Translations under genes and position numbers: made by a program | Part shown: positions 1,300-30,547 of the stretch, one piece after another | Layout of the letters: each line of letters starts with the position of its first letter | Numbering within the stretch: the stretch's first letter is position 1 | The notes under the pieces: generated by a model | What the model was told of the DNA's origin: nothing | What the model saw: only the letters and a program-made list of their open reading frames with translations | The model's database searches: none | Assembly (NCBI GenBank): GCA_965227835.1 | Contig: OZ245768.1 | Location: 90,001-122,000 of the forward strand | Direction of reading: 5' to 3' | Length of the DNA: 32,000 nucleotides | Source of the DNA: Candidatus Saccharimonadota bacterium | GTDB taxonomy: Bacteria > Patescibacteriota > Gracilibacteria > BD1-5 > UBA6164

Positions 1300-1442
1300 T
1301 AACTTTTATATTCTTGTCAATATAGGGCTTCATCCCTTTGCTATATGATATTTTGGGTAAATAATTGTTACAGGTTGAAACTCTCTTCTTGGTATATTTT
1401 GAGTAGGTATGATAAGGGGCTGGAAATCTTTTTTGAGTTTTA

Positions 1443-1466
1443 CAAAAGGCTAAAGCCTTCTGTTGA
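1443..1466 (+). repeat. 24-nt hairpin motif copy a: CAA-AAGGC-TAAA-GCCTT-CTGTTGA
   Basis: Member of a recurrent intergenic motif family (other copies at 3948, 4950, 9068, 11903, 27688). Lies 145 nt downstream of the helicase stop. Confidence 0.6.
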
Positions 1467-1583
1467 ACTAAATATGATAAGAGACTGAAACTTCCTTTTG
1501 ATAATAAATACAACAAATAGCTTCAACCTTCTATTGAAGATCCATTCAATAAGAAATTATATATAAATTTAAAATAATGTATT

Positions 1584-2162: not shown

Positions 2163-3788
2163 ATGACTCTTGAAACAAAAAATAGTGAAAGATACAGGAT
2201 AAAAACTAGAAATATCTTTCCAGATGATCATAAATACCTAACTTTTTTGAAAAAGGTTTTTAGGCATGAATTTAGAAAAAATGGTTTTAGAAGAATTTCT
2301 ACACCTTTTTTTGATGAAAAAAATTTCTTCCAAAAAGTTTTTTGAGAAGATTTAAAAGATAGTCTTATAGATTTCAAGGTTTGAGACTTAGATAGTTTTT
2401 GTCTTAATCCAAGTCCGAGTATTTTAAATTTTAAAGCTTATTTAAAGGAAGAAAAAGATTATGATATACAGCCTGTTTATAATTATTTTATGTGAACTTA
2501 TTTCCCTAAAATTTGAGATTTTTGCACAGAGTGAAAGATTCTTTTTGGTTGAGATGTAATATGAGAAAATGATGTAATTATAGATGTGGTTAATTTGTAT
2601 ATTGTTTCCAATATACTTGATAAAATTTGATTCAAGTGAGAGTATAAGATAAAAATAAACTTTATTTGAAACAAAAAAGAGATATTGAAATATAGTGAAG
2701 CTTTAGAAGAATTTTATTCTGATAAAAAACATATATTAACTGAAAAATGACTAGATTTTCTAGAAGGTTGAGATGTTTTAAAGATTTTTTCGAGCGATAA
2801 TGAAGATGAACAGATTCTTTTCAAAAGTTCTCCTAAAATAGATAAGTTTTATAAAAAAGATAGTAAGAGTGATGTTTTGAGGTTAAAAAAATATTTAGAG
2901 ATATTAAATCTAGATTATGTATGGGATTCTTATTTATTTTGAGAATATGATTTTAATGATTGAGTTATATGGGAAATAAAATTGATAGAAAATTGAGATC
3001 AAACCCAAAACTCTTTCCAAGAGGACCTTACTCCCAACCCTTTCCAAGGGGACTCTACCCCTAACCCCTCTCTGCACGGACCTCACCCCCAGCCCCTCTC
3101 CTCTAAGGAGAGGGGGGTAGGACAGAGGTTATTTAACTCTAGTCTTCCTCAAACACATTCTAATTTTATTCAGCCAAAACTCAGCTCCAGCTCTTTTCAA
3201 GAAAACCTCACTCCCAGCCCCTCTCCTTTGGAGGATAGGGTAGTAGGACAGGGGGAGAGTTTATTCGAAAATTGAGTTGAAGAGGAGGATTCTTATATTG
3301 ATAAAAATATTTTGGCTAGGGGATATTGATATAATGAGTTATCAATTTTGCTAGGAGAGAGTAAAGAAATTGCTTGAAGTTGATTTTGGGTTGATATACT
3401 TAAGTTGATAAATTCTTTAAAATCAAAAAATATTTGTATAAAAAATAAAGATAAACTAGATTTGTTTTTTGTTCAGCTTGGTGATGATGCTAAAAAGGTT
3501 GTTATGCCTCTTAGTTTGAAAGCTAGAAATGCAGGTATAAATACAGCTGTTTCTCTTGGTACTCCTTCTATAAAAGATCAAATGTTAAAGGCTCAAAGGA
3601 GTTGAGCTACTTATGTTGTGATTGTGTGAGTTATGGAAGCAAAGTCTTGAGTTTTTCAAGTTAGGAATAATATCTCAGGTGTACAAGAAGAGGTAAAAAA
3701 AGACGAGCTTATAGATTATATAATAGATAAAATTGGGAGTGAGGCTCTTGATTTTTACGACCCTAGTAGGGATTTATTGGAAGAATAA
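2163..3788 (+). CDS. hisS: Histidine--tRNA ligase carrying an in-frame GC-rich insertion
   Basis: I checked every codon of frame 0 from ATG 2163 to TAA 3786-3788 and found no TAA/TAG. It has a class II HisRS-like N-terminus (RNIFPDD..FRKNGFRRISTPFFD), a GYGYNELS..GSGFWVDIL motif-3 region and a C-terminal anticodon-binding domain (FFVQLGDDAKK..ATYVVIVG). Confidence 0.85.
3000..3262 (+). mobile_element. GC-rich palindromic repeat insertion inside hisS, translated in frame
   Basis: Local GC is far above the surroundings. It contains hairpin CCCCTCTCC-TCTAA-GGAGAGGGG (3093-3115), a decayed second copy (3218-3241) and CTCACCCCCAGCCCC / ACTCCCAACCC modules shared with the repeats at 3948-6262 and 28763-29485. 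It encodes LTPNPFQGDSTPNPSLHGPHPQPLSSKERGVGQ...LTPSPSPLEDRVVGQGE with no stop. Confidence 0.75.
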
Positions 3789-3947
3789 ATAGATTTTTTT
3801 ATTTTTTATATGGATTCTAGATTTACAAAAATATAAAGTTCTCTGCCTACTAAAAATTAAAATAAACATAAAAAGTAGAGAATGAGTTATGTTTTTTTAT
3901 AATCATTTAATTTTATTTTCACTTATTCAATTATTTTAAACATTTTA

Positions 3948-4113
3948 CAAAGAGCTAAAGCTCTCTGTTGAAAAATTTAAAATAAACATAAAAATATTTG
4001 TTCCTTCCCTCTCCTCCAAAGGAGAGGGTTAGGGTGAGATCTGTTTGGGCTAGGTTTATATATTGCCCTATACAAGGGGTCAAGACCCCTTGTCTTAAAG
4101 AGAGACTGAATAG
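3948..4113. repeat. Composite GC-rich repeat element A (short form)
   Basis: 24-nt hairpin motif (3948-3971), AT-rich linker, hairpin CCCTCTCC-TCCAAA-GGAGAGGG (4007-4028), TTAGGGTGAG, hairpin ACAAGGGGTC-AA-GACCCCTTGT (4072-4093), then GACTGAATAG. Near-identical ends to elements B and C. Confidence 0.85.
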
Positions 4114-4204
4114 TTCTTTAGTTTTTGTGTTTTTATACAATTCCATTTTAGTAAATAGTGGTACCTATCTACTGGTACAGTTAATACATCACACAAAAAA
4201 ACTT

Positions 4205-4233
4205 TTGACAAAAAATATATATTTTTATATAAT
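4205..4233 (+). promoter_or_regulatory. Consensus sigma70-type promoter TTGACA-N17-TATAAT
   Basis: TTGACA at 4205-4210, a 17-nt spacer and TATAAT at 4228-4233. Followed about 60 nt later by an imperfect hairpin (AAGGG..CCCCTT) plus a T-run ending near 4297. Confidence 0.4.
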
Positions 4234-4297
4234 GTATACATATCCATACGAAAGGGTTCCAAAAAGTGTTAGTGCTTTAGGATCCCCTTTTTTATTT

Positions 4298-4789
4298 TTA
4301 AGAATATTCAAGATGATTTTTTGCATTTTTTAAATAGTAATATTTCTTGAAAGTAAGTTTATTATACAGGGAAGATGCAAATTTTTTATTAGGAAAAAGT
4401 ATTTTTTCAAACCTATCTTTCTCAATAAGGTAATCAACCAATATTTTGAAATCTCAATCTCAAGTAACTAAAATAATTTTTTCAAACCTATCTCATCTAT
4501 CTATTAAATTTTTCATAATATAAAAAATCATATCAGTATCTATATTTCATTTTTTTAATGAATCCATTTCAGAGACTTGTTTCTTAAAAATCAATTTAAA
4601 TCAAGCATTTTTAATATTATCATATAAATCTTTATTTTTATCATTCTTAAATCATATGAAGTAATAAGCTTTTTTTACTTTATATTTATCTTTTAAAAAT
4701 ATTCTAAATTTATATAAATCTATTTTCCAATTATCTTGTGAAGTTCAAAGGTGTAGGTTTTGTCAGTCTATGAAAGTATAGTTTTTCAT
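4298..4789 (-). CDS. NYN-domain (LabA/DUF88-like) putative RNase
   Basis: ATG (complement of 4787-4789) to TAA (4298-4300), 163 aa. The N-terminal FIDGQNLHLG and central LVTGDGDF (both Gly = TGA) are the NYN/LabA signatures. Confidence 0.75.
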
Positions 4790-4949
4790 AACTTATAAAT
4801 AGTCAATTATTATTTGATAATCTAATTCTTTTCTTTCTTTTTTCTACCAGGTTTAAGTATTTCTTTATGATAGGAAATGTTTTCTAGTTTATTATTATTA
4901 ATTTCAATTTTATTATATTTTTATTTTTTCAATTAGTTTAAACATTTTA

Positions 4950-5176
4950 CAAAGAGCTAAAGCTCTCTGTTGAAAAATTTAAAATAAACATAAAAATATT
5001 TGTTCCTTCCCTCTCCTCCAAAGGAGAGGGTTAGGTTGAGGTCTTGCTTGGAAGGGGTTAGGGTGAGTTTGAGCTGGAGATAGTTACGTCTTTTTAGGTT
5101 TAGAGGAGGTCTTTCTCAGAGAGAGTTAATCTTAGACAAGGGGTCAAGACCCCTTGTCTTAAAGAGGACTGAATAG
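4950..5176. repeat. Composite GC-rich repeat element B (long form)
   Basis: Same architecture as element A with about 100 bp of extra internal sequence that it shares with element C (GTTAGGGTGAGTTTGAGCTGGAGA.AGTTACGTCTT...GAGGAGGTCTTTCTCAGAGAGAGTTAATCTTAGACAA). Confidence 0.85.
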
Positions 5177-5201
5177 TTCTTTATGAGTTTTTCGAATTAC
5201 T

Positions 5202-5594
5202 CTAATCAATATTGGCATTTTTTCTTTTTTCTTCTCTTCTTTTTCTTCTTTGTTCGTTTGCTATAACACTAAATTCAAAAAAATATCTTTCAAAAAATTT
5301 TTTATCTGACTTGTATTCGTTGTATCAAAAAAAATAGTCTGATATAAGTTCACGGATCATACATATCTCTTTTAACTTCGGTGTATTTTTCCATTTTTTG
5401 TCTGCCATTGCCATATCTAACAGTTCATATGCTCTGTTTATAGAGCCTGTAAATTCTTTTTCTTTTCAATTTTCAATATTATTTAAGCTTCTTCATACTT
5501 CTGCTCATATATTGGCTAGTTGTTCATATATAGATAATTCAAACCATCTTCATGATTCAAGAATGTCTCTATGGAATATTATGTGTTTTAGCAT
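5202..5594 (-). CDS. Hypothetical all-helical protein (130 aa); weak resemblance to MazG-like EXXE/NTP-pyrophosphohydrolase helices
   Basis: ATG (5592-5594) to TAG (5202-5204) with TGA=Gly. The start overlaps the upstream gene stop (ATGCTAA). Sequence LSIYEQLANIGAEVGRSL..AYELLDMAMADKKWKN..LKEICMIRELISDYF. Confidence 0.6.
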
Positions 5595-5941
5595 ATAATT
5601 TTTTTGTTTATTAAGTTTTCAATGGTATTTCTTATGTTTTCATCTTCTATATATCTGCTTTTGTTATTTTGATTTGGTCTTATATTTATCATAGAATCGT
5701 ATTCTATGAAATTAGGTGTGTTATAATTATCTGAATATAGATTAATTCACCATAAGTTTTCTTGTTCATATCATTCATCAATCATCATATCTTCTTCATC
5801 TACATGTAAAACTCATCATATAACGAAATCTCAAGACTTTATGTCTATTACTACTTTTGCTAATTTGTTTCCCTCAGGAGAAGAGCAATTTTCATATTCT
5901 TTTATTTCTTCAATTGTTATATTACTTATTATTTTTTTCAT
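5588..5941 (-). CDS. Hypothetical protein (117 aa), first gene of an overlapping pair
   Basis: ATG (5939-5941) to TAA (5588-5590), open with TGA=Gly. I recognise no motif family with confidence. Confidence 0.55.
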
Positions 5942-6047
5942 TTTTTTTATAATATTTTTTTAATTTTTTACTTTCAATTTTATTATATATTTATTTTTAT
6001 TTCTGCAATGGATTTTTTTATAATTATACTTTAATCTTTACTTTAAA

Positions 6048-6262
6048 AACGCTAAAGCTCTTTTTTGCCAAAAACATAAAAATATTTGTTCCTTCCCTCT
6101 CCTCCAAAGGAGAGGGTTAGGGTGAGGTCTGTTCGGATATTGTTAGGGTGAGTTTGAGCTGGAGAGAGTTACGTCTTGCTAGGCTTAGAGGAGGTCTTTC
6201 TCAGAGAGAGTTAATCTTAGACAATGTGTCAAGACCCCTTGTCTTAAAGAGAGACTGAATAG
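6048..6262. repeat. Composite GC-rich repeat element C (long form, degenerate 5' hairpin motif)
   Basis: Shares CATAAAAATATTTGTTCCTTCCCTCTCCTCCAAAGGAGAGGGTTAGGGTGAGGTCTGTTC and the distal hairpin/GACTGAATAG end with A and B. The distal hairpin carries two substitutions (ACAATGTGTC). Confidence 0.85.
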
Positions 6263-6423
6263 TTTTTTAACACTTAAAAAATAATAATTTTTGTAATGCT
6301 TTTGCAACTAAATTTAAACCAATAAAAATAAAAATAAATCTTTTTTGTTCCAAAATTTGCGAGCAGTGAAAAAGTATGTTATCATTTATCTTATAAAGTT
6401 TATAAATAATTTATTTAAGATAG

Positions 6424-8718
6424 ATGTACCTGACAAAAATTAAAGATTTTTTACTTCAAAACAAAAAAACAATTTTTTTTCTTGTTTTTTTGTTTTTTAT
6501 TTTTTTCCCAGAATTAGGTTTTGGTAATCAACCTGCTGATAATTGATGAAATGGAGGTGATAATAATTGAGAAAATCAAAATATGTTAATTGAAATTATA
6601 AATTTATTTATAGCTATAGGTTGAGTTTTGATTTGACTTATGACTCAATTTGTTTGATTATTTTTAACTCCTGGTTGGACTGATGGTAGTGCTGTTTGAT
6701 TTAATTGAGATTTGAAAAAACTATGGATTTTGGTTTCCAATGTGGTTTATACTATATTTGCGATAATTTTGATAATTATTGCTTTTATGAATATTATTTG
6801 AAAGTGAGAAAATACTTGGGAGCTAAAACAAGCTTTACCCAAATTTATAGTTTGAGTTTTGATAGTTCCTTTTTCTTGGTTTATAGTAGCAGCTTTTGTG
6901 GGTATTAGCTCTATACTTACTGTTTCTGTACTTAGTATTCCTATGGAGCATTTTAGCACAAAACTTGATAAAGCTAATTGGGATAAAATTTATATTAGTA
7001 AAGAATATACATTTAATCTAACTAATACTTGATCCAATAATGCTATAGAAACAGACGATAATACTAAAATCAATTTAAAAGAATTTATAGAAGAGGGTAA
7101 TAATATATTTTCTATAATGACTCTTTATACATATTGAGTTATGTCAGTTGATGATCGTTGAAAAATGTTTGGATGAGATGAAATAAAAACATTTGGTGAT
7201 TTAAGTGTGAAAATTATTTTTGATTTGATTTTTTTTGTTATATTTTTTCTGCTCCTTATAGCATTATTATTATCACTTTTTCTCAGATGAATACTTATAT
7301 GGGTTTTTACTGTTTTATCTCCTATTTTTGGTTTGCTTTATTTCTTTTGAGATAAAGCTACTGAAGGTTTGAAAAAATTTAGTTTTTCAAATTTTGTTTG
7401 ACTAGTAATGATGCCTGTTTATGTTGCGGCCGCTTTGTCTTTTGGATTACTTTTTATTTCTGTTGCATGAAATAATATTACTGATGATTCAAATTGTGAA
7501 CCAGCTAAACAACTTTGTGTTACAAATACTAAAGATAACACAGTTTCTACGATTGAGTTTCTATGAATTAAACTAAACTTTAAATGATCTTTTGGTTCTT
7601 CATGAAATGAAATTAAAAGTTTTATATGAGGTCTTAAATGATCTTTTGGGCAACTTATATTACAGATTTTTTGACTTGTGATTTTATGGATGTCTGTTAT
7701 GGCTGCTCTTAGAACTAGTGAGCTTACAAAAGAGGTTATATCTCCTATAGAGAGTTTTTGAAATTCTATATGAAACCTGGCTATGAAAGCTCCTACTTAT
7801 GCACCTATAATTCCAGCTCCTGGGGGGGCTATGAGTCTTAAATGATTAGAAAAAGTTTGAGGAATGCCTCAAGCAGCTTTAGAATCTAGGTCTGGTAGGA
7901 AAGTTTGAACATATCAAGATGGTATTAATAATTTTTTCTGAACAAAAACTTTTAGTGCCCAAGATAAAGCTAAACTAGGTCAATTATATACCAATTGAGT
8001 TAATAATAATAATTTACGACATATACAAAATATCTTACAGAGAAATATATCAGAGTTATGACTTAGCAACAGGGATATGAAATTAGAACTTGAAAGATAT
8101 TTTAGTGAAATTTCAAAAAAATCTAATAATAATGAATTTAGAGATAAGGAAATTAAAGATTTTATTAATGCCGATTGAAGTCTTACAAAATTATGATATG
8201 CTGCTATGCATATGGATGATATGAATGAGTTATCTTCTCAATTTTCAGAGATAGATGTTACTTCATATAATTCTTCAAATAGACTACCTTGATGATCTAG
8301 ATGAAGTACTAATCAACCCACTACTCCAAATCCAACTAGAGCTTCTTCTGGCTTGCCTGATATAAATATAGAAAGTAATATAAGAATAAATGAAAATTGA
8401 GCTGTAGAAAATACAAGTCTTTGAACAGTTGTTCAACAAATTATAAATCAATTGGACCCAAATGAATTTAATTCTTCTACAATGACTGAAGATGAATTTA
8501 GAAGGGACCTTAAAAGTTCTATAAACGGTAAAATAACTGATCCTACCAGTTTAGATGAGGTTGTATCAAGAGTTATTACTTGAATTCAAGAACAAGAAGT
8601 TTCTCCATCATCAAAAACTACAAGAACATTTAAAGTTGAAGAATCTTCTAATCCTAGTGATTCTTCTGCCCCTACATCTACTGATGGAGTTCCAGATGCT
8701 AGTTGATCAAACCCTTAA
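6424..8718 (+). CDS. Large multi-pass membrane protein (764 aa) with Gly/Asn-rich N-terminal segment and Ser/Pro/Thr-rich C-terminal tail; possibly TrbL/VirB6-like
   Basis: I checked every codon of frame 1 from ATG 6424 to TAA 8716-8718 and it is open. It has several long hydrophobic stretches (e.g. IFFLVFLFFIFF, VYTIFAIILIIIAF, IIFDLIFFVIFFLLLIALLLSLF, LVMMPVYVAAALSFGLLFISV). The functional assignment is a guess from architecture only. Confidence 0.8.
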
Positions 8719-9067: not shown

Positions 9068-9091
9068 CAAAAGGCTGAAGCCTTCTGTTGA
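9068..9091 (+). repeat. 24-nt hairpin motif copy e: CAA-AAGGC-TGAA-GCCTT-CTGTTGA
   Basis: Same family as 1443-1466. The loop is TGAA instead of TAAA. Confidence 0.6.
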
Positions 9092-11902: not shown

Positions 11903-11926
11903 CAAATGGCTAAAGCCATCTGTTGC
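11903..11926 (+). repeat. 24-nt hairpin motif copy f: CAA-ATGGC-TAAA-GCCAT-CTGTTGC
   Basis: Same family. The stem sequence differs from copies a and b by compensatory changes. Confidence 0.6.
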
Positions 11927-12399: not shown

Positions 12400-14052
12400 A
12401 TGCTTTTTATGTCCCAAAGTAGGGAAGAACTAATCGAAAAGATAAAACAACTAGAAATTGAACTCAAAAAAGTTAAATCTTATAAAAAGTATTGACTAGT
12501 TTGGGAAGATAAGCCTGAAATTTTTGAGGAAAAATCTAGAAATGCTCTTCCTATACTCAAAGAAGATAAAAACTTAAGAATTGAAGAAAACGAAAAAAAA
12601 CCTAACAATATAATTATAGAGTGAGATAATTATCACTCCCTCTCTAGCCTTTTATACACTCACAAAGGTAAGGTTCAGGTGATTTATATCGATCCCCCCT
12701 ACAATACTTGAAACAAAGATTTTATATACAATGATAATTATGTAGATAAAGAAGATTCTTATAGGCATTCAAAGTGGTTAAGTTTTATGAACAAAAGATT
12801 AAAATTGGCTAAAGATTTATTAACTGAAGATGGTATTATTTTTATTAGTATTGACGATAACGAATTTGTTCAACTGAAAATGCTTTGTGATAAAATTTTT
12901 TGAGAAAATAATTTTGTTGATTGTATTTCTTGGGATAAGAAATCTTCTGCAAAATGAGTTCCTCCAGTAAATATGATAGTAAATACCCATGAATATATTC
13001 TAACTTATCAAAAATCAAATAAATTCTCTTTTATATGAGAAAATAGGGATATAAAGTGATTTTCAAATCCTGATAATGATCGTAGATGACCCTGGAGAAA
13101 TACAAATATAAAAAGTACTGTTAAGAAAAAAGATGAATCTTTTGAAATAATAGATCCAGAAACTTGAAATAGTTTTATTGATACTTGGGCATTTTCAGAA
13201 AATGAAATAGAAAGATTGATAAATGAAAAATACTTAATATTTCCAAAAAATAAAAACTGACAAGTTAGAAGAAAAGAATTTTATAATGAATTTAAAAATC
13301 AAAATACTCCTATAAAATCATCTTGGTGATTATTTGATAATCAGAAAAATACTGAAATGCTAAAATCAATGTTTTGATGAATGGTATTTCAGAATCCAAA
13401 GCCTATAAAATTATTAAACTATTTACTAAAAGTAGTTTCAAAGCAAAACTCCACTATCCTAGATTTCTTTGCTTGATCTTGAACAACAGGTCATGCAGTT
13501 ATGGAATTAAACAAAGAAGATTGATGAAATAGAAAATTTATACTTTGTTCTAACAAAGAAAATACAAAAGAAAATCCAGATAAAAATATATGCAGAAATA
13601 TAACATATGAAAGAAATAAAAAAGTTATAAAGTGATATAAAAACTCTAAATGAGAAAAAATTGAGTGATTAGGATGAAATTTAAGGTATTATACTACTGA
13701 ATTTATAAAAGCTGATAAATCAATAGATGATTTAAGATATAGTTTTATAGATATGTGTGATGATTTACTTTGTATAAAAGAAAATACTTTTAATGAAGTA
13801 AAATTAAAGAATTCAGTTCCAGAACTTAGATTATTTAAAAAATGAGACAAATACACAACAATCCTATACGATATTCATCATTTTAAAAGTCTATTAAATT
13901 TACTTGAAGTGCTAGACTGAAAAATCTCTGTTTATATATTCTCTCTAAGTAAAGATATTTTTGAAGAAGAACTAGAACACTTCAAAAATGTAACAATCCA
14001 AAATATCCCTGATGATATATTATCAACATACAATAAAATCTTTAATTTTTAA
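12400..14052 (+). CDS. mod: Type III restriction-modification DNA methyltransferase (Mod, N6-adenine class)
   Basis: Frame 1 checked codon by codon to TAA 14050-14052. Motif IV VIYIDPPYNTG (about 12682-12714) and motif I LDFFAGSGTTGHAV (about 13459-13500, Gly = TGA). An alternative start ATG at 12409 is possible, because ATG 12400 lies inside hairpin GCATATTAA-TTTT-TTAATATGC (12382-12403). Confidence 0.85.
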
Positions 14053-14119
14053 GCTTATACTCAATTCCCTTATAAGCAGGATTTTATGGTGATTTATTTA
14101 ACTTTTAATAAAACAGTAA

Positions 14120-16657
14120 ATGATACTAAAAGAATATCAAAAAACAGCAGTAAAAGAACTATTATCATCAACAATAAAAGAACTAAACAAAGACGAAAAA
14201 AACAGCTCTATAGTTTTCAAAGCACCAACTTGAAGTTGAAAAACTATAGTGATGCAAAACTTTCTTAAAGCATTTTCAGAGAGTGAATTAGCATGAGAAT
14301 TCTGCTTTTTATGGATAAGTGTAAATGACCTATCTAAACAATCAAAAGACAGTTTTGAGAAAAACTTAGAATGAAGCAAACTACATTTTTCTGAATTATA
14401 TGATATACAAGAAAAAGAAATAAAAAATAATGAAATACTTTTTATAAACTGGGAGAGTATAAGAAGTATTGACAAAACTACTTGAGAATGGAAAGTACTT
14501 GCTATGAGAGATAATGAAAGAGATGAAAACCTGCCAACCTATTTATCAAATACCCATATATCTTGAAGAAAAATTATTCTAATAGTAGATGAATCACATA
14601 GAAGCCTTGATACACCAAAAGCTCAAGAACTTATAAAAAACTTTATTAAACCAGTAGTGCAAATAGAGGTTTCAGCAACACCTGATTCAAAAGATTATAA
14701 TAGTAAAATAGAAGTAAATATTGTGGATGTTATAAAAGAATGAATGATAAAAAAAGAAGTTTTGGTAAATGAAAATTTATCTAATATAGCTGATACTGAT
14801 ATTGAAACTGATAAAATTATTCTTGATTTAGCTTTTGAAAAGCAAAATGAACTAATAGAAAATTATAAAAAAGAGTGAACAAATGTAAAACCTCTAGTTT
14901 TAATACAACTGCCCTCTGAATCGAAAAAAACAACTGATATAGATAAAACAAAACTAGACAGAATCATACATATCTTAAAGCAAGACTATAATCTGACACT
15001 TGAAAACCAAAAATTAGCTATTTGGTTAAGTGAAGATAAGACAAATAAAGACTTGGTAGATATAAAAAATTCTCAAATAAAAGCTCTTATTTTTAAACAA
15101 GCAATCGCAACTTGATGGGATTGCCCAAGAGCACAAATACTTGTAATGTTTAGAGAAATAAAAACAATTACCTTTGAAATACAAACTGTTTGAAGAATAC
15201 TTAGAATGCCTGAATGGAAGCATTATGAAAATGAAATATTAAATAAAGCCTATGTTTTTACTGATTTACCAAAAGCTGAAATATGAATACATGAAACTGC
15301 TAAAAACCTTATTAAAAACCAAGTTTGAATAAGAAAAAATGAAATATATAAACACTTCTCTTTAGAATCTTTTTATAAGTCAAGATGAGATTATAAAGAT
15401 ATTTGATTTAGCTTTTATAATATACTGGCTGAAGCTCTAGTAAATAAAGTAAATTGAGATTTTGATAGTTTTTTGAGAATAGACAATTTGCTAAAACTTG
15501 AAAAAATAATTGATACAAACGAAAAAGAAATAACAAACTCCATACTTTCTGACTGAAAAATATTGGTAGATATAGACAACCATACTTGAGAAAAAATCAT
15601 TGCTAAAAGTGAAATAGAAGCAAAAACATGAGAAGAACTCATAAAACTGACATTTGATGATTTTGCAAGGAACGAAGTTTGACCTCAATTTACAAATATT
15701 GCTAGATCATATACAAAAATAATTGAATGATTATATTATAGTTTGGATAATTATTTTTTTTGAAGATCTAGAACTAAACTTTATTATCAAAAACTTATAT
15801 TAAATAATAAAAACTTCTTTGTAGAAGTGCTGGAAAATGCAAAGAATATATATGTAGATATAAGAAAGCAAGAAGTAAAAACAAGGAAAAAAGAAGCTGA
15901 AAAAAACTACATCTGGAATATACCTAAAAGTCAATGATTTACTGAAAAATCTGAAATTATAAGATATAATAAAAATATTATAGAACCTTCTTTTATTAGT
16001 TTTGATAGCGACAAAGAACAATTATTTATAGAATATTTTCTAGAAAAATCTGATTTAGTAGATTTTTGGTACAAAAATTGAACTTCTTCAGAACAATTCT
16101 TTGCAGTCCCATACAATGATGAGTATCTAGAAATCCAATCTTTTTATCCTGATTTTATAGTTTATTTCAAATCTTGAATTATATGAATCTTTGATACAAA
16201 AAGTTGATTTACTCTTAAAGAATGAAGATTAAGAGCTAAATGACTAGAAGAATATATAAAAAATAATACTAAAAAATGAAAAAAAATTATATGAGGACTT
16301 ATTGAAATAAACAAGGTTTCTCATACTGAAACCGTTACTATGCGTATAAATAATACTTGGAATTATTCTCTTGAAAACAGAAAAAGTTTTTCTATTTTTA
16401 ACGATAGCTACATTGAAGAATATAGATTTGAAGAAATAACTTGAATCTCAGAGAATTATAAAAATGATATAAGAGAGGAGATAGAAAATTTAAACCATGA
16501 TATAAATAATAAAAAAACTAACTATAGCTTTTTCATAGCTGAACAAGAAGATTTTTGAGATTTTGATTATGAAAAAGCTAGTGAGCTAAGAAAGGAAATT
16601 AATCAAATGGAAAACGAAATTAAAGAAAAAGAAAAAATTTTGAGTGAACTAGTGTAA
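14120..16657 (+). CDS. res: Type III restriction enzyme Res subunit (SF2 helicase plus C-terminal PD-(D/E)xK nuclease)
   Basis: ATG 14120 (in-frame TAA at 14117) to TAA 16655-16657. APTGSGKT (14222-14245, both Gly TGA), IVDESH (14582-14599), QTVGRILR, and the C-terminal YPDFIVYF..GIFDTKSG nuclease motif. Confidence 0.85.
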
Positions 16658-16689
16658 AATACTATTTTTGAAATCAAAAATAGTATTTT
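16656..16689. terminator. 14-bp perfect hairpin between convergent res and rloB
   Basis: AAAATACTATTTTT-GAAATC-AAAAATAGTATTTT. Confidence 0.6.
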
Positions 16690-16695
16690 AAAAAT

Positions 16696-16955
16696 TTACT
16701 CAAAATTTTTGTATATTTCATGCACTTCTGAAAATGGATTTTTATCTTTTATATGAATTTTATCCCAATGTATTTTTTCCAAACTTGATATATTCTTATT
16801 TAAATTAGAGATTCCACCTTGTATAATTTTTCTATGAATCTCTATTTTTTCGCTAGAGTATCATTTGTCATAGCCTTTATGGTATTTTTTGATTTCATTT
16901 ATATAAGAATTATTTGTTGAATCAAAATATTTTAAATGTAATAATACAAACAATT
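16696..16955 (-). pseudogene. RloB-like (AbiLii-like) gene, C-terminal segment separated by the IS insertion
   Basis: Reads ..LFVLLHLKYFDSTNNSYINEIKKYHKGYDKGYSSEKIEIHRKIIQGG... to TAA (16696-16698). It joins in frame to 18162-18241 if the IS and one AATT copy are removed. Confidence 0.7.
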
Positions 16956-18161
16956 GGGACCTCTGCAAAAAGATAGATTTAAATTACAAAAATATAATAA
17001 AAAGATTAAAATATGATAAATATTTTAATTTTTTTTTAATGATTATGTCACCATTTAAAGAACAACAAACATTTTTGAATTATTTCCAAAATGAGTTATG
17101 AATTACAAGAACAGAAAAGTTTCTAACAAAATTAGATAAAGTAGTCCCATGGGAATCAATATCAAATAAAATTAATTTATCTAGAGAAATATCAGATTGA
17201 TGAGTTTGAAGACCAAGAATGGAAATACAAAAAATGTTAAAAATACTATTTCTTCAATGACTATATGGATTATCAGATCCGGAAATAGAAGATCAAATAA
17301 GAGACAGAAATAGCTTTCAAAAGTTTCTATGAATATCTGAATCTAAAGATATACCAGATGAAACAACAATATGTAGATTTAGAAATGAATTATCAGAAAA
17401 CTGAAGTCAGGAAACTATATTTACAATGACTCAATTTATTTTAGCTGAAATGTGATTTACAGTAGAAAAGTGATTTATTCAAGATGGTACTATAATAGAA
17501 TCACCAAAATGAAGAAAGAATAATAAATGAGAAAATACAAGAGATAAGGAAGCTAGTTTTACAAAGAAGAATTGAAGAAGTTATCATTGATATAAAGCTC
17601 ATATTGAAACAACAAAGAGAGGAGACTTTGTAATGAATACAACATATACGACAGCTAAGATACATGATTCACAATTATCTGATACTTTAATGACTTGAGA
17701 TGAGAATGAAGAGGCATATTGAGATAGTGCCTATATAAGTAAAGATAAAATAAGATTTTTAGATGAGTTATGAATTAAGTGAGAGTTCAATGAAAGATGA
17801 TCTAGAAATAATCCGTTGACTTCTTATCAAAAAGAACAAAATAGAATTAAATCTACTATTAGGGCAAGAGTAGAACATCCTTTTTCTATTTTAAAGGCTA
17901 AATATTGAAATTATAAAACAAGATATAGATGATTAGTTAAGAATGCTATGCACTGGTTTTTATCTTGTGCTATTTATAATTTTGAACTATTGGCAAGGAG
18001 GTATATATAGCTTTCTAATAGGTGAATTGTGCCTAAATTTGGAAATTATACCTAAAAAAAGGCATAATTCATAGAAATTATCTTATATATTCTTCAAAAA
18101 AAGTGATTTTTATTCAAAATCACTTTTTTCTTGTTCTTTTCAACAATATTGCAGAGGTCCC
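16956..18161 (+). mobile_element. IS5-family insertion sequence (1206 bp)
   Basis: Terminal inverted repeats GGGACCTCTGCAA (16956-16968) / TTGCAGAGGTCCC (18149-18161). AATT is present on both sides (16952-16955 and 18162-18165). It contains a single transposase ORF. Confidence 0.85.
17045..18010 (+). CDS. IS5-family DDE transposase (321 aa)
   Basis: ATG 17045 to TAG 18008-18010 with TGA=Gly. Shows ..LQGLYGLSDPEIEDQIRDRNSFQKFLG.., YGDSAYIS (second D) and RARVEHPFSILKAKYG (catalytic E region), typical of IS5. Confidence 0.85.
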
Positions 18162-18528
18162 AATTCAAAATCTTGATTAGAAAATAATACTTCTGCATAA
18201 TCGTCTTGATCAAATAAATTTTTTATAACATTTATTTCATCTTTTTATATGCATCAGTATCAAGTAATAAATATATTTTTGAATTGGTATTTTGAAGTTG
18301 CTTTTTAGAAAACTCAAAATTATAGCTAATTTTTTCATAGATTTTGTCTATATAATTTGAAACTTTTTTCTTGGTAGTTCATATTTGTCAAGATTTAAAC
18401 GACTCTATTTTAACATTTGTATTGGATCTTTTAATTTCTCTAAAAGCATCAAAATAACATTTTTCAGTTTCTCATTCACAAAATATAAAAAATGTCCTTT
18501 TTAGTCTTTTCCTTTTTTGTTTTCTCAT
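18162..18528 (-). pseudogene. RloB-like (AbiLii-like) gene, N-terminal segment, frameshifted and IS-interrupted
   Basis: ATG (18526-18528) gives MRKQKRKRLKRTFFIFCEGETEKCYF (RloB signature CEGEKTE-like). This frame hits TAA at 18232-18234. The homologous reading continues in another frame (DEINVIKNLFDQDDYAEVLFSNQDFE) after an A5 run at 18242-18246, which implies a 1-nt loss. Confidence 0.7.
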
Positions 18529-19754
18529 GAAATCATTTGTTTTATTAATGAACTAAAATCTCTAAGAATAGGCACTCATCATAGAGATCATAAATTATAT
18601 AACTTTTTTATATCATTTTCACTTCTTAAATCTTCAAAATCATACAGTGTATAAAATTTTGTAGAACCAGATTCGCTCTTTTCTATAATACCTATTTGTT
18701 CTTTTTTAAATTCTTTTAGATTCATTAATTCTAGATTATGAGTTGTAAATATAAATTGATATTTCTTTCATAAGTCACTGTGAATTAAGTTAAATAAATT
18801 TTTTACTATATGAGGATGTAAATTCATTTCTATTTCATCAAAACACAATACTCATTCCTCTTTTATATTTACTAATATTCTTCATAGTATTCAAAATAAC
18901 TTTTTAGTTCAATCTGATTCTTGTAAAAATGGTAAATATTCCAGTTCATCTGTTCAATTAATTTTGTGTCAAAATCTTATAATAGGCTCTGGAGGTATAA
19001 AATTAATACCTCCTTCATTAGGACCAAGATTAATTACTTGTAATTTTTGTTCTTCGATTCTAATATCATAAATGTTAATATCAGCACATTTTAGAAACTC
19101 TATAGCAAGATTTTTATATTCATCATTATCATTCAATTTTAATAAATTAACTGTTTCAATACCATCAAAATCCCTTCATAAGCTAACTAATTTACTAAAA
19201 AAATATAGTATTGGCTTGTTATTCAATTTTCAATTAAATTGATCTAGTATCCACAATACAGAAACATTTTCTCTTACTTTATCTTCCAACAAATTTGAAT
19301 GATTAGAAAATCAATTCTCAAATTTTATATTTTGATTTTTCCTTGAAAACAATGTGATTTTTTTATTTTTTCATTTTATTTCATATAAATTTTCAGATTT
19401 TACTATCTTTTTTAATAGTTCAAAATTGTAAATATACTCTTTGTTATCTATAAAAAATGATATTTCAAAAAAACTTGATCAATCTTTAGTATTTTCGTCA
19501 AATAGAAAAGGAGATATATAAAAAGTTCTTTTCATTACAAAATTTGTTATAACTACTATGGCTTTTAATATATTAGTTTTTCAACTGGCATTAGCTCAAT
19601 AAATAATCATACTCTTTTCTAGAGTTGTTTTTTTTCAATAAGATTCAATAGAAAAAACATTGTTCTTTAAATTTCAATAATTTGAAGATTCAAAGTTAAT
19701 TTCTGTCTCATCTTTAAAAGATAAAAAATTTTTTACCTTAATATATTTTAACAT
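18501..19754 (-). CDS. AAA_21/ABC-type ATPase (AbiLi/RloA-like)
   Basis: ATG (19752-19754) to TAA (18501-18503), 417 aa. Walker A IYGANASGKTNILKAI (Gly TGA), Walker B-like VLCFDEIEMNLHP, then FIFTTHN. The 3' end overlaps the rloB-like start by 28 nt. Confidence 0.75.
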
Positions 19755-21768: not shown

Positions 21769-21809
21769 AAACTTACTTTCTTACTTTGGGACTTTTTAAT
21801 TATTTTTAT

Positions 21810-22670: not shown

Positions 22671-22747
22671 ATTTATAACAAATTATGATTATATTTAATA
22701 GTATTTATTCTTTAGAATAAAAGTTTTTTCCCATAAAATAAAGCAAT

Positions 22748-22789
22748 AGCCTGTATTTGGATATTGCTTTATTTTTTACATATAAAATC
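22748..22789 (+). terminator. Terminator hairpin, copy 1 of a roughly 41-bp direct repeat
   Basis: ATAAAGCAATAGCCTGTATTTGGATATTGCTTTATTTTTTA. A near-identical copy lies at 24272-24318. Confidence 0.6.
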
Positions 22790-27829: not shown

Positions 27830-30547
27830 ATGCTAAATACAAAACTCACCAAATCAATTTTAAGAACTACTGATAAATATATAGAAGCTTTATCCAAAGT
27901 TTCTGTAAATACTATATGAGATTTTATAAATCATTTTCCAAGAGATTATGATGACAGAACCGAAGTTATTGATAGTTTTTCCTTAATAAACATAAAAGAG
28001 AAAAATACTGTTTTAGTTTCTCTAGTTTCTATAAATGATAGCAGAACATCAAATAATATGATTTTGACAAAGGCTATAATTGAAGATAAAAATTGATTTT
28101 TATCTGAAGCAGTATGGTTTAACAGAAAATACCTTAGCAATCAGCTAAAATTATATATTTGAAAAAAGATTATTTTAACTTCCAAGGTAAAATATAGTTT
28201 TTGAAAAATAAGTTTTCAAAGTCCAGAAGTTGAAACTGATTTGAGTAAAATTTGATGAGAAATAGTTCCTATATATCCAGATTTAAACTATATTCCAAGT
28301 AAATGGATAGAATGAAAAATGTCTTTACTTAAAACTTATTTTTCTGAAATATCAGAAATCCTACCAGAAAAAATAATAAAGAAATACAATTTTATAAGTA
28401 GAAAAGAAGCTTTTTATCTTATTCATTTTCCCAAAAATAAAAACGATATTGAGGTTTGAAGGTTTAGGCTTTGATATGAAGAATTATTTAATATAAACTA
28501 TAAAACTATTTCCAAAAAATATGAATCTTTTTCTAATTCAAAATGAAAATCGGTTGTTATAAAGCTTAATCCAAACCTTATAAAATACATAATTTCTAAA
28601 CTAAAGTTTGAACTCACTGATAATCAAAAAATTGTTCTTTTTCAAATACTTAAAGATATGGAAAAAGAACACTCTATGTCTAGGCTTTTAGAATGAGATG
28701 TTTGAACTTGAAAAACTATAGTTGCTTTGATTGTAAGTATTCATGCTATTTTGGAAACTTTACCTGAATACAACAGATACAACCAAGACAAGGGGTCTTG
28801 ACCCCTTGGTAAATCTTGTTTGACTGAATCTAATCCTCAACCTCCTAAAACTCACCCCCAGCCCTCCTCTGACATCCCTCACCCCCAGCCCCTCTCCTTT
28901 GGAGGAGAGGGGAGTAGAACATTTTCAACTTCCATAGCTTCTTTTTTGGAAGATAGAAATTTAGAACATACTTCACTTTCATCTTTACAGAACTTATTTA
29001 CAGATAAAAATAATATTTGAAAAACTTATTTGAAGTCACCTGCTTATGTTTTTGATTTAGCGAAAAAATTTAGAAAATATCCAACAGAGCCTGAAAAAAA
29101 ACTTTGGCTTTATCTTAGAAATAATAAATTTGATGATTTAAAATTTAGAAGACAACATCCTGTTTGAAGATATATTGCAGACTTTTGTTGTGAGGAATTA
29201 AAATTGATTGTTGAAATTGATTGAAAAATACATGATTCTAAATTTCAAAAAGAATATGAGGAAGAGAGAGATAATTTATTAAAAAACTATTGATTTAATA
29301 TAGTTAGATTAAAAAATGAAGACATTTTATATAATGATAAAGAATCTATATATCTCAAAATAAAAAAATCTGTTTTATCCCAATTTTCTTTCCCCTCTCC
29401 TTCAAAGGAGAGGGTTAGGGTGAGGTCTGTTCAGAAAGATTGAATTTTAGATTTTGGAGAGGGGAGTAGAACATTTTCAAATCCTATCCAAACTGTTTTT
29501 ATAGCTCCTACTGAAATACTCGCTTATCAACACTTTCAAAGTAGTCAAGAACTTTTAAATACTTTTTGAATCACTTCTTATTTACTCACTGGTTCTACTA
29601 CACAAAAACAAAAAATGGAGATAAAAGACTGAATGAAAAACGGAGATGTAGATATTATTTTTGGTACACATGCTTTGTTGCAAGATGACATACTTTTTAA
29701 AAATTTATGATTTGTAATTATAGATGAACAACATAGATTTTGAGTAAAACAAAGAGAAATACTGGAAGCTGGATTTTGAAATATAAGTGGTATGATACCT
29801 CACAGCTTAAATATGACAGCTACTCCAATACCAAGAACTCTTGCTTTAACTTTATACTGAGATCAAGATTTAAGCATAATTAATAAATATCCAAAATGAA
29901 GAAAAGAGATTTTTACTAAAGTTGTGAAAAATGAAAAAGAGAGAAAACAAGTAGAACTTTTTATTAAAAATGAACTTGATAAAGGTAGGCAAATTTTTTG
30001 GATATCACCTTTGGTTGAAGAATCAGAAAAGATAGATTTAGCTAATGCAATAAATACACATAGTTATTTAGAAAATATCTTTTTCCCTTACAAGGTCTGA
30101 CTTCTACATGGTAAAATGAAACCCAAGGAAAAAGAGGAAATTATGCTTAGTTTCAAGAAAAATTATATTAATGTTTTATCTTCCACATCTGTTGTAGAAG
30201 TCTGAGTTGATATAGCTAATGCTTCTGTTATTTGTATAGAGTGAGCTGAAAGGTTTGGTCTTAGTCAGCTTCATCAATTTAGATGAAGAGTAGGTAGAGG
30301 AGATTATAAATCTTATTGTTATTTATTTCCTAGTTCTTGAAATTATACAGATAGGCTGAAAGCTATGGAAAAAACTAATAATGGTTTTGAATTATCAGAA
30401 ATAGATTTAGAAATAAGATGACCTTGAGAAGTTTATTGAGTGAGACAATCATGACTGCCAGATTTAAAAATTGCAAAACTTACAGATTTGGAGTTAATTT
30501 CAGAGATTAGGGAAGATATAGAAGATTTGATGTTAAACGGAGAGTAA
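27830..30547 (+). CDS. recG: ATP-dependent DNA helicase RecG carrying an in-frame insertion of about 240 codons between helicase motifs I and Ia
   Basis: ATG 27830 to TAA 30545-30547. I verified frame 2 codon by codon from 28742 to 29521. Motif I LLEGDVGTGKT (28688-28717), motif Ia VFIAPTEILAYQH (29495-29533), DEQHRFG, TATPIPRTL, QLHQFRGRVGRG. Confidence 0.85.
28763..29485 (+). mobile_element. GC-rich hairpin repeat element with embedded DUF559 (Vsr-like PD-(D/E)xK endonuclease) module, inserted in frame in recG
   Basis: Hairpins CAAGGGGTC-TT-GACCCCTTG (28789-28808), CCCCTCTCC-TTTGGA-GGAGAGGGG (28889-28912) and CCCTCTCC-TTCAAA-GGAGAGGG (29393-29414). A 25-bp direct repeat GGAGAGGGGAGTAGAACATTTTCAA lies at 28904-28928 and 29456-29480. 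The DUF559-type sequence AKKFRKYPTEPEKKLWLYLRNNKFDDLKFRRQHPVGRYIADFCCEELKLIVEIDGKIHD...RDNLLKNYGFNIVRL spans about 29060-29311. Confidence 0.75.

What the first reader, a model, noticed from the sequence alone, without database searches (positions are those of the whole stretch)
3948..6262. Three copies of the composite repeat separate small same-strand genes in a cassette-like array
Elements A (3948-4113), B (4950-5176) and C (6048-6262) share near-identical ends. The left end is a 24-nt hairpin motif, an AT linker and CCCTCTCC..GGAGAGGG-TTAGGGTGAG. The right end is ACAAGGGGTC-AA-GACCCCTTGT-CTTAAAGAGAGACTGAATAG. B and C share an extra internal block of about 100 bp that A lacks. All are in the same orientation. 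They bracket two units of minus-strand genes: the NYN-domain gene (4298-4789) and the overlapping pair 5202-5941. The AT-rich sequence just left of A and B is also duplicated (3905-3947 resembles 4900-4949). The arrangement of gene, structured repeat, gene, structured repeat resembles a cassette array, or repeat-mediated duplication and shuffling of small accessory genes. The repeats contain GTTAGGT/GTTAGGG strings reminiscent of integron attC core sites, but no integrase is present in the window.
Basis: partly seen in the sequence, partly recalled or inferred. Interest (0 to 1): 0.65.

Follow-up and report, generated by a model that had tools for sequence, protein, structure and literature searches.

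The report
BoxC-type mosaic repeats flanking small genes
The three repeats are real, but they are not integron-like recombination sites: they are local copies of a dispersed mosaic repeat built around the widespread BoxC / "triplex motif" hairpin, which in this recoded (TGA = Gly) Gracilibacteria genome also sits in frame inside two housekeeping genes and next to a Vsr-like (DUF559) endonuclease gene.

Summary
Elements A (3948-4113), B (4950-5176) and C (6048-6262) are same-strand copies of one composite repeat. They bracket a NYN gene and an overlapping DUF5674 + 130-aa gene pair, which are readable only with TGA = Gly.

The integron/attC reading fails:
- No integrase is present in the window.
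- No complementary RYYYAAC/GTTRRRY core pair exists in any element.
- Four more copies of the GC-rich core lie in frame inside HisRS and RecG.

"GTTAGGG" is simply part of the known G/C-rich BoxC/PIT "intrastrand triplex motif" (TM: CCCTCTCC-loop-GGAGAGGG-TTA-GGGTGAG; Holder 2015).

Each element is a mosaic of four parts: a lineage-specific hairpin (hp1, 7 copies, all on the + strand), the TM, a palindrome (hp3, also found across phyla) and a tail. An "empty" hp1-tail unit at 1437-1497 shows that the TM-hp3 core is an insertion.

Related genomes have HisRS directly next to the membrane-protein gene, so 3789-6423 is a variable island. The DUF5674 pair occurs elsewhere without repeats.

TM inverted pairs flank DUF559 endonuclease genes inserted in RecG, RecQ, TsaB and MetH, and a TM lies next to E. 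coli ycjD. I infer that A, B and C are endonuclease-less derivatives that spread and recombine locally.

Verdict: a new variant of a known repeat kind, of moderate interest.

The parts
3948..4113 (+). Element A. hp1 hairpin 3948-3967 (+TTGA to 3971); AT linker 3972-4006; TM (CCCTCTCC-TCCAAA-GGAGAGGG-TTA-GGGTGAG) 4007-4038; hp3 palindrome 4072-4093; tail 4094-4113.
4950..5176 (+). Element B. hp1 4950-4969; linker; TM 5009-5040 (third strand GGTTGAG, 1 mismatch); extra block 5041-5135 with a second GGGGTTAGGGTGAG at 5053-5067; hp3 5136-5157; tail 5158-5176 (2-nt deletion).
   Evidence: (D2, D5)
6048..6262 (+). Element C. Degenerate hp1 (5' arm lost) 6048-6067; linker 6073-6094; TM 6095-6126; extra block 6127-6220; hp3 with 2 mismatches 6221-6242; tail 6243-6262.
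3822..3875 (+). Degenerate fourth copy of the hp1 + AT-linker module, without the TM core, just downstream of HisRS.
   Evidence: local score 55; maximum of 1000 shuffles 32
1437..1497 (+). 'Empty' hp1-tail unit: hp1 followed after 12 nt by AAGAGACTGAA. It aligns end to end with element A once 3973-4093 is removed.
   Evidence: score 50; shuffle maximum 27. AGAGACTGAA occurs only at 1480, 4101 and 6250.
4298..4789 (-). NYN-domain (LabA-like) gene between A and B (code 25).
   Evidence: (PF01936, E = 1.4e-16)
5202..5941 (-). Overlapping two-gene unit between B and C: DUF5674 (5588-5941) and a 130-aa partner (5202-5594). The pair is conserved with the same 7-nt overlap in relatives.
   Evidence: (PF18924, E = 4e-25)
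2985..3308 (-). Two reverse-orientation TM cores (about 3000-3125 and 3170-3255). Together they form an in-frame ~105-aa insertion in HisRS (gene 2163-3788, + strand) that is absent from all homologues.
28786..28925 (-). Full TM-hp3 core in reverse orientation (hp3 28788-28809; TM 28877-28912, loop-2 of type-B style), in frame inside RecG (27830-30547).
29054..29362 (+). DUF559 (Vsr-like PD-(D/E)XK endonuclease) domain in frame inside RecG, between the two inverted TMs.
   Evidence: (PF04480, E = 2.2e-31)
29393..29425 (+). Forward type-A TM closing the DUF559 insertion. It is followed by a 25-nt direct repeat (29457-29481) of 28903-28927.
   Evidence: inverted repeat I1, 96% complementary
9068..9090 (+). 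Solo hp1 hairpin. Other solo copies are at 11903-11925 and 27688-27710; all are intergenic and on the + strand.

Best explanation
A, B and C are copies of a dispersed mosaic repeat, not recombination sites of a cassette system.

Structure. The GC-rich core has two parts. The first is the BoxC/PIT 'intrastrand triplex motif' (TM), a hairpin followed by a G-rich third strand. The second is a 10-bp-stem palindrome (hp3). In A, B and C this core sits inside a lineage-specific AT-rich unit (the hp1 hairpin ... AGAGACTGAA tail), which also exists 'empty' at 1437-1497.

Relation to DUF559 (inferred). The core is the endonuclease-less relative of a TM-flanked element that carries a DUF559 (Vsr-like) endonuclease gene. 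One such element is nested in this genome's RecG. I infer that the cores spread through breaks or repair at TM or hp1 structures, possibly made by the DUF559 enzyme acting in trans. They persist where they do no harm: in intergenic DNA, or in frame in tolerant loops of proteins.

The local array. Three copies lie in one 2.6-kb island that is absent from relatives. They arose by insertion next to hp1 units and by local duplication or gene conversion. They now supply about 100-230 bp of direct-repeat homology that can delete, duplicate or shuffle the NYN gene and the DUF5674 pair.

Shown versus inferred. Shown: family membership, dispersal into coding sequences, the filled/empty site pair, the island, and the TM-DUF559 association. 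Inferred: the mobilising enzyme and the mechanism of spread.
For: 1. The core matches the published TM/BoxC consensus, with type-A loop TTA. More than 120 exact GGAGAGGGTTAGGGTGAG hits occur in viral contigs of 35-70% GC.
2. Seven TM cores lie in the window. Four are inside HisRS and RecG, where the host frame has 0 stops against 4-20 in the other frames. All HisRS homologues lack the insertion.
3. Filled versus empty hp1-tail sites. hp1 also occurs alone 4 times and shows compensatory stem changes.
4. Relatives L229 and L231 have HisRS directly followed by the membrane-protein gene. The DUF5674 pair lies elsewhere and repeat-free in L319, L322 and L323.
5. Chimeric similarity: A and B share the left flank at 90%, B and C share the middle block at 95%.
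6. TM(rc)-DUF559-TM(fwd) is found in RecG here, at the same RecG site in L236, and in RecQ (L235), TsaB (L237) and MetH. A TM-like pair plus an hp3-type palindrome flank DUF559 in a Bacteroidota genome.
7. E. coli ycjD has a TM 168 nt downstream.
8. TM-like hairpins are 8.5 times denser within 400 nt of DUF559 than in the rest of the same loci.
9. TM-encoded peptides occur in 28 of 70 DUF559 flanks against 0 of 476 control windows.
10. TMs are linked to local genome instability in E. coli (PMC4666352).
Against: - No movement was observed. The rest of the 1.49-Mb source contig could not be read, so the genome-wide distribution is unknown.
- The elements have no significant terminal inverted repeats and no clear target-site duplication.
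- Only 9 of 80 DUF559 loci in viral contigs carry strict TM hairpins nearby, and those hits cluster in a few loci. None of 120 TM-bearing viral loci had a DUF559 match with this single query. Most TMs are therefore solo, and the link could run the other way: DUF559 genes may land at TMs.
- Holder et al. reported no link between TMs and mobile elements in E. coli.
- The relatives used for synteny share only about 60% amino-acid identity, so they say nothing about polymorphism of single units.
- The control windows come from AT-rich HisRS proteins only.
Confidence: 0.6

Rival explanations
1. Integron-like (or other site-specific recombinase) cassette array. Each repeat would be an attC-like site, and each gene unit a mobile cassette captured by an integrase encoded elsewhere on the contig.
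For: Read on the minus strand, the order is repeat - gene unit - repeat - gene unit - repeat, with all repeats in one orientation and small same-strand genes between them. The whole block is absent from relatives. B contains one GTTAGGT that fits GTTRRRY.
Against: - No complementary RYYYAAC/GTTRRRY pair in any element on either strand.
- The fold is three independent hairpins.
- The same core occurs inside HisRS and RecG.
- No integrase in 32 kb.
- The DUF5674 pair lacks such repeats in other genomes.
- GTTAGGG is explained by the TM consensus.
Confidence: 0.03
2. Selected cis-acting structures. The composite would be kept at gene boundaries because its hairpins act as transcript 3'-end stabilisers, terminators or insulators, or as protein-binding sites, for the small minus-strand genes and their neighbours.
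For: - Stable hairpins (TM -20 kcal/mol, hp3 -14 kcal/mol).
- B starts 26 nt after the stop codon of the gene pair, and A lies between convergent genes.
- hp1 is a conserved, covarying hairpin found only on the + strand in intergenic DNA, about 135-143 nt upstream of three + strand genes.
Against: - No terminator-like site in 3600-6600 on either strand.
- All three copies are antisense to the local genes.
- PIT/TM elements showed no promoter or terminator activity in E. coli (PMC4666352).
- The same core inside coding sequences cannot have this role.
- Relatives express the same genes without it.
Confidence: 0.15
3. Purely local history. One ancestral element was copied twice by unequal recombination or segmental duplication inside this island. 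There would be no transposition-like spread and no role for the DUF559 enzyme.
For: - A, B and C are closer to one another (91-92%) than to the coding-sequence copies (73-91%, mostly lower, lenient alignment).
- The A/B similarity extends about 60 nt into the AT-rich flank.
- Five of the seven TM cores lie within 3000-6262.
Against: - The genes between the copies are unrelated, so the whole units were not duplicated.
- C has a different hp1 variant at its left junction but the identical linker-TM junction.
- A full copy lies 22.5 kb away in RecG in the opposite orientation.
- The empty site at 1437-1497.
- TM-DUF559 units sit in different host genes in other genomes.
Confidence: 0.17

Closest known systems
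BoxC / PIT element / G/C-rich intrastrand triplex motif (TM_ECO) of E. coli and more than 260 other genomes (Holder et al. 2015, PMC4666352; also the 'G-quadruplex-hairpin' motif of Kaplan et al. 2016, PMC5100583)
   Same: Same three-block sequence: C-rich arm, loop, GGAGAGGG, TTA, GGGTGAG(G). Both loop-2 styles are present, and inverted type-A/type-B pairing is seen as in E. coli. The motif sits in a region that varies between genomes.
   Different: - Arms are 8 nt, not 9.
- The motif is embedded in a larger 165-230-nt mosaic with hp1, hp3 and a tail.
- The host is a 25.6% GC, TGA-recoded CPR genome.
- Copies also occur in frame inside coding sequences, whereas E. coli TMs are always intergenic.
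- A link to DUF559 genes was not reported by those authors.
Modular mosaic repeats: E. coli BIMEs and pneumococcal BOX elements (boxA-(boxB)n-boxC). From my own knowledge.
   Same: Short hairpin modules are combined in a fixed order, with a variable internal module (B and C have an extra block that A lacks). The elements are intergenic, with no coding capacity and no known dedicated transposase.
   Different: The module sequences are unrelated. Those families are not reported inside coding sequences in frame, and they have no associated endonuclease gene.
Rickettsia palindromic elements (RPEs; Ogata et al. 2000). From my own knowledge.
   Same: Palindromic repeats inserted in frame into housekeeping protein genes, with the reading frame preserved. 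Intergenic copies also exist.
   Different: Different sequence and host lineage. RPEs have no associated endonuclease ORF. A, B and C themselves are intergenic.
Integron attC sites and gene cassettes
   Same: Alternation of structured repeats and small same-orientation genes.
   Different: No R''/R' cores, no single bulged hairpin and no integrase. The repeats also occur inside genes.
Homing-endonuclease elements of the Vsr/DUF559 PD-(D/E)XK clade (I-Bth0305I; grouped with DUF559 in PMC3424549)
   Same: A small endonuclease ORF of this clade sits at conserved sites of helicase and other housekeeping genes. The same RecG site is occupied in two genomes.
   Different: No intron or intein scaffold. 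The ORF is bounded by inverted TM hairpins and read in frame with the host, or splits it (L236). Activity is untested. A, B and C lack the ORF.
Rfam RF01762 whalefall-1 RNA motif
   Same: The consensus has a CUCUCC/GGAGAG hairpin followed by AGGGUGAGGAC, like a TM.
   Different: The score is 19.2 bits against a gathering threshold of 37. The model has a 24-nt spacer where the TM has 3 nt.

Membership tests
Integron attC / cassette array | Complementary core sites R'' (RYYYAAC) and R' (GTTRRRY) at the two ends of each site | tested here: not met
   no such pair within 45-160 nt in A, B or C on either strand. The only hit is a lone GTTAGGT in B.
Integron attC / cassette array | Single imperfect hairpin of the whole site, with extrahelical bases | tested here: not met
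   three independent perfect or near-perfect hairpins (hp1, TM, hp3). The end-to-end pairing is not above chance.
Integron attC / cassette array | Adjacent intI tyrosine recombinase with attI and Pc | tested here: not met
   no Phage_integrase or recombinase domain in any ORF of at least 100 aa in the window. The rest of the 1.49-Mb contig could not be read.
Integron attC / cassette array | Sites confined to cassette boundaries | tested here: not met
   four copies of the core lie inside the HisRS and RecG coding sequences.
BoxC / PIT / TM intrastrand triplex motif | Three consecutive blocks: pyrimidine arm, complementary purine arm, and a G-rich third block that mirrors the purine arm, with loops of 1-6 nt | tested here: met
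   against Table 1 of PMC4666352: CCCTCTCC-TCCAAA-GGAGAGGG-TTA-GGGTGAG.
BoxC / PIT / TM intrastrand triplex motif | Loop 2 of type A (TTA) or type B (CCG), with inverted pairs combining the two types | tested here: met
   A, B, C and 29393-29425 have TTA. The reverse copies have GCT/GCTGG-style loops. The RecG pair is one of each type. L235 and L237 also show A/B pairs.
BoxC / PIT / TM intrastrand triplex motif | Exclusively intergenic location (as in E. coli) | tested here: not met
   Three of seven copies are intergenic and four are in coding sequence.
BoxC / PIT / TM intrastrand triplex motif | Formation of a DNA triplex by the single strand | not testable with these tools
   Needs CD or NMR on the 8-nt-arm variant.
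MITE | Terminal inverted repeats and a target-site duplication | tested here: not met
   left end versus reverse-complemented right end scores no better than shuffles. No clear duplication at the filled/empty junction. The window's IS5-like element has unrelated 17-bp inverted repeats.
REP/BIME-type mosaic repeat | Short palindromic modules combined in variable mosaics at many loci | tested here: met
   Modules occur separately (hp1 alone 4 times; TM alone at 29393; TM+hp3 in RecG) and combined (A, B, C), with a variable internal block.
REP/BIME-type mosaic repeat | Cognate RAYT (Y1 transposase) in the genome | not testable with these tools
   None is in the window.
RPE-like in-frame coding-sequence repeats | Repeat inserted in a protein gene with the reading frame preserved, and absent from orthologues | tested here: met
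   This holds for the HisRS and RecG copies only, not for A, B and C.
Rfam whalefall-1 (RF01762) | Score at or above the gathering threshold (37 bits) | tested here: not met
   19.2 bits.

The most novel reading that the evidence does not exclude
The BoxC/PIT/TM motif has been an unexplained repeat conserved across phyla since the 1990s. On this reading it is the terminal hairpin of a widespread selfish element that encodes a DUF559 (Vsr-like) endonuclease. The element inserts, usually in frame, into conserved sites of housekeeping genes (RecG, RecQ, TsaB, MetH). Solo TMs and mosaics such as A, B and C would be its non-autonomous remnants, which the enzyme can still recognise and which seed local genome rearrangement.
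Probability: 0.4. Interest if true: 0.75.

Novelty: new variant of a known kind. Interest (0 to 1): 0.5.

Why it matters
As a cassette array the finding does not hold up, so it opens no new recombination system.

It matters for three other reasons:
- It extends the BoxC/TM motif to a candidate-phyla-radiation bacterium with an altered genetic code and 25.6% GC. The GC-rich repeat stands out there and can be seen both filled and empty.
- It shows the motif tolerated in frame inside an aminoacyl-tRNA synthetase and a helicase.
- It points to a concrete, testable partner for a motif whose origin and function have been open since its description: the DUF559 endonuclease. The E. coli YcjD protein and its adjacent TM offer an immediate experimental system.

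It is also a practical warning for annotation. These repeats create spurious peptides (PSP..GEG, ERVRVR) and apparent domain fusions.

Tried and rejected
- Genome-wide map of the repeat. The window's own proteins are not retrievable from the contig index.
- Collection scans:
It turned out to be common in many phyla, mostly with loop AT, and did not return the source genome.
  - The composite-specific hp3+TCTT junction has 0 hits in viral contigs and JGI metagenomes.
  - The TM with loop TCCAAA gave only 3 solo copies, all in other TGA-recoded contigs.
  - BLAST of element B against plasmids and phages found only ~35-nt matches.
- MITE hypothesis. RNA folds paired hp1 with the tail, but the complementarity is not above shuffles, so I dropped it.
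- Mobilisation by the window's IS5-like transposase. Its 17-bp inverted repeats are unrelated.
- Terminator or promoter role. There are no terminator-like sites, and the promoter-like hits in hp1 are not consistent between copies.
- Known RNA family. Only a sub-threshold whalefall-1 hit.
- First test of the TM-DUF559 link. A tblastn search of one DUF559 sequence against 120 TM-bearing viral loci found none. The link appeared only when starting from DUF559 genes.
- Defence or toxin-antitoxin annotation of the small genes. Only a weak NYN hit in PADLOC, and nothing in NCBIfam.
Full report
**1. Setting**

The window has 25.6% GC. It yields almost no ORFs under table 11 but 36 ORFs of at least 100 aa when TGA is read through. 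TGA falls at conserved glycines (GDVGTGKT, RIGRTGRAG, APTGSGKT), so the code is 25. The best protein homologues are named Candidatus Gracilibacteria. The source contig is 1,489,121 bp. Public gene calls for it use TGA = Trp.

**2. The observation**

Elements A (3948-4113), B (4950-5176) and C (6048-6262) are confirmed as same-strand copies of one composite. From left to right, the modules are:
- hp1: a hairpin, CAAAGAGC-TAAA-GCTCTCTG followed by TTGA. It is intact in A and B and degenerate in C.
- An AT linker ending in AACATAAAAATATTTGTTCC. It is identical in all three.
- hp2: CCCTCTCC-TCCAAA-GGAGAGGG followed by TTA-GGGTGAG.
- An extra ~100-nt block with a second GGGGTTAGGGTGAG, in B and C only (95% identity over 110 nt).
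- hp3: ACAAGGGGTC-AA-GACCCCTTGT.
- A tail, CTTAAAGAGAGACTGAATAG.

Each motif is far above chance expectation. The genes between the elements are a NYN protein, a DUF5674 protein and an overlapping 130-aa partner, all on the minus strand.

**3. The repeat is not confined to gene boundaries**

The same GC-rich core occurs four more times, all inside coding sequences.
- Two reverse copies form an in-frame ~105-aa insertion in HisRS (541 aa). The 119 other homologues listed are mostly about 425-450 aa. Alignment to a relative maps the insertion to residues 275-382.
- A full reverse copy (hp3 ... TM) and a forward TM lie in RecG.
- In both genes the host frame has no TAA or TAG across the insertion, while the other two frames have 4-20. 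The frame is therefore being kept open.

**4. What hp2 is**

A full-text search for the sequence found Holder et al. 2015 (PMC4666352). hp2 plus TTAGGGTGAG is the G/C-rich 'intrastrand triplex motif' (TM), first described as BoxC and later as the PIT element. According to that paper:
- It is present in more than 260 genomes and is always intergenic in E. coli.
- It comes with loop-2 type A (TTA) or type B (CCG), and often occurs as inverted A+B pairs.
- It showed no promoter or terminator activity.
- It is associated with local genomic variability.
- The authors found no link to mobile elements.

My own scans agree on ubiquity. There are more than 120 exact hits of GGAGAGGGTTAGGGTGAG in viral contigs of 35-70% GC.

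The hp3 palindrome is also found in many phyla. Rfam gives only a sub-threshold whalefall-1 hit on the TM.

**5. The integron test**

No element has a complementary RYYYAAC/GTTRRRY pair. The folds show three separate hairpins. No tyrosine recombinase is present in the window.

**6. Anatomy of the mosaic**

- hp1 is an independent motif. It has seven copies in the window, all intergenic and on the + strand, and four of them lack a TM. Three stem pairs show compensatory changes, and one copy exists in a relative.
- The site at 1437-1497 carries hp1 followed after 12 nt by AAGAGACTGAA. It aligns end to end with element A after 3973-4093 is removed. AGAGACTGAA occurs nowhere else except in the tails of A and C.
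- So the linker-TM-hp3 core is an insertion within an hp1-tail unit, and a paralogous empty site survives.
- C uses a different hp1 variant but the identical linker-TM junction. This argues for repeated association with hp1 units rather than one duplication.
- A degenerate hp1+linker lies at 3822-3875.
- The ends are not significant inverted repeats. The window's IS5-like element has unrelated inverted repeats.

**7. The island**

In two relatives (about 60-64% HisRS identity), HisRS is followed after 163-195 nt by the orthologue of the 764-aa membrane protein. Window 3789-6423 is thus an insertion at a conserved junction.

The DUF5674 + partner pair, with the same 7-nt overlap, is found in relatives in other neighbourhoods, with no TM, hp1, hp3 or GC-rich islands nearby. 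The repeats are therefore not part of a gene-plus-site unit.

A and B share the left flank (90% over 156 nt). B and C share the middle block. This chimeric pattern is expected from recombination or gene conversion among local copies.

**8. The endonuclease link**

Between the two inverted TMs in RecG lies a DUF559 domain (PF04480, E = 2e-31). DUF559 belongs to the Vsr clade, which includes a group I intron homing endonuclease (PMC3424549). The evidence for a general TM-DUF559 association is:
- Homologues of the RecG insertion include a second Gracilibacteria RecG with TM(rc)-DUF559-TM(fwd) at the same site. There a TAA stop splits RecG into two ORFs (L236).
- The same unit sits in frame in a RecQ (L235).
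- It is found in five TsaB proteins (L237) and in MetH proteins.
- A Bacteroidota locus has DUF559 between an inverted TM-like pair, with an hp3-type palindrome 70 nt away.
- A strict pattern for TM-encoded peptides hits 28 of 70 DUF559 flanks against 0 of 476 control windows.
- In 80 viral-contig DUF559 loci, TM-like hairpins are 8.5-fold denser within 400 nt of the gene (0.41 against 0.048 per kb). Only 9 loci contribute.
- In E. coli K-12 the DUF559 gene ycjD has TM no. 9 of Holder's table 168 nt downstream. The chance of this is about 0.004.
- I found no paper that states this link.

**9. Interpretation**

A, B and C are endonuclease-less mosaic derivatives of TM-bounded elements. They are inserted in hp1-tail units of a variable island. 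They are best viewed as selfish or neutral repeats that supply homology for rearrangement. How they spread is inferred, not shown.

Rivals and my confidence in each:
- Selected regulatory structure: 0.15.
- Purely local duplication: 0.17.
- Integron-like array: 0.03.

**10. Limits**

- The relatives used for synteny are distant.
- The 25-nt direct repeat flanking the DUF559 segment in RecG (28903-28927 and 29457-29481) is unexplained.
- The function of hp1 is unknown.

Noticed in passing
whole window: TGA is read as glycine (genetic code 25). Table 11 gives 6 ORFs of at least 100 aa, against 36 when TGA is read through. Public gene calls for this contig translate TGA as Trp, which gives about 4% wrong residues.
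   Followed up: yes
window 27830-30547 (insertion about 28780-29482); L236 5500-5960; L235 2220-2700; L237 3300-3750: A TM(rc)-DUF559-TM(fwd) unit interrupts RecG between helicase motifs I and Ia and is read in frame (905-aa ORF). The same site is occupied in another Gracilibacteria RecG, where a TAA stop splits the gene. Like units sit in frame in RecQ, TsaB and MetH of other genomes.
   Followed up: partly
window 28903-28927 and 29457-29481: An exact 25-nt direct repeat, GGAGAGGGGAGTAGAACATTTTCAA, brackets the DUF559 segment inside RecG. It may be a long target duplication or a recombination scar. It is unexplained, and no such duplication was seen when I read L236.
   Followed up: no
window 2985-3308: HisRS carries an in-frame ~105-aa insertion built from two reverse TM cores. 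The 119 other homologues listed are mostly 425-450 aa.
   Followed up: yes
window 1443-1466, 3948-3971, 4950-4973, 6048-6067, 9068-9090, 11903-11925, 27688-27710; L231 4735-4758: The hp1 hairpin motif (CAAAnnGC-TAAA-GCnnCTG-TTGA) has seven copies, all on the + strand and intergenic, with compensatory stem changes. In three cases it lies about 135-143 nt upstream of a + strand start codon. Its function is unknown.
   Followed up: partly
L001-L108 (genome contigs): The 20-nt palindrome CAAGGGGTC(AT)GACCCCTTG recurs in Saprospiraceae, Vicingaceae, Moraniibacteriota, KSB1, Spirochaetota and others, far above chance expectation. In L059 it lies about 130 nt upstream of the DUF559 match (4580-4855).
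   Followed up: partly
L238 (E. coli K-12, NC_000913.3 1351204-1351760): The DUF559 gene ycjD of E. coli K-12 has a type-A TM (BoxC) 168 nt downstream in the fabI-ycjD spacer.
   Followed up: partly
window 4205-4300: A perfect sigma-70-like promoter (TTGACA-17-TATAAT, + strand, 4205-4233) is followed by a hairpin and a T-run ending at the NYN stop codon. This could be a ~55-nt convergent small transcript or a bidirectional terminator.
   Followed up: partly
window 16952-18165: An IS5-like insertion sequence (DUF772 + DDE_Tnp_1 transposase, 17039-18010) with perfect 17-bp inverted repeats, AATTGGGACCTCTGCAA.
   Followed up: partly
window 21792-22264: Seven or more tandem 51-bp repeats inside ORF 21786-22670. 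They encode a 17-residue repeat (SGNIEIGG...) rich in TGA-encoded glycine.
   Followed up: no
window 22733-22779 and 24272-24318: A 47-nt direct repeat (91% identity, terminator-like hairpin) brackets the RhuM-family gene (23135-23950) and abuts tRNA-Glu (24324-24399). This may be a small integrated element.
   Followed up: no
window 12400-19754 and 25088-27619: A cluster of defence or mobile-type genes: type III-like methylase + Res helicase, AAA_21 (AbiEii-like) ATPase, and a TrwB/TraG-like coupling protein. The window as a whole looks like a variable part of the genome.
   Followed up: no
window 6093-6129: The TM gives a sub-threshold match to Rfam whalefall-1 (19.2 bits; gathering threshold 37). 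That metagenomic 'RNA motif' may be a TM variant.
   Followed up: partly
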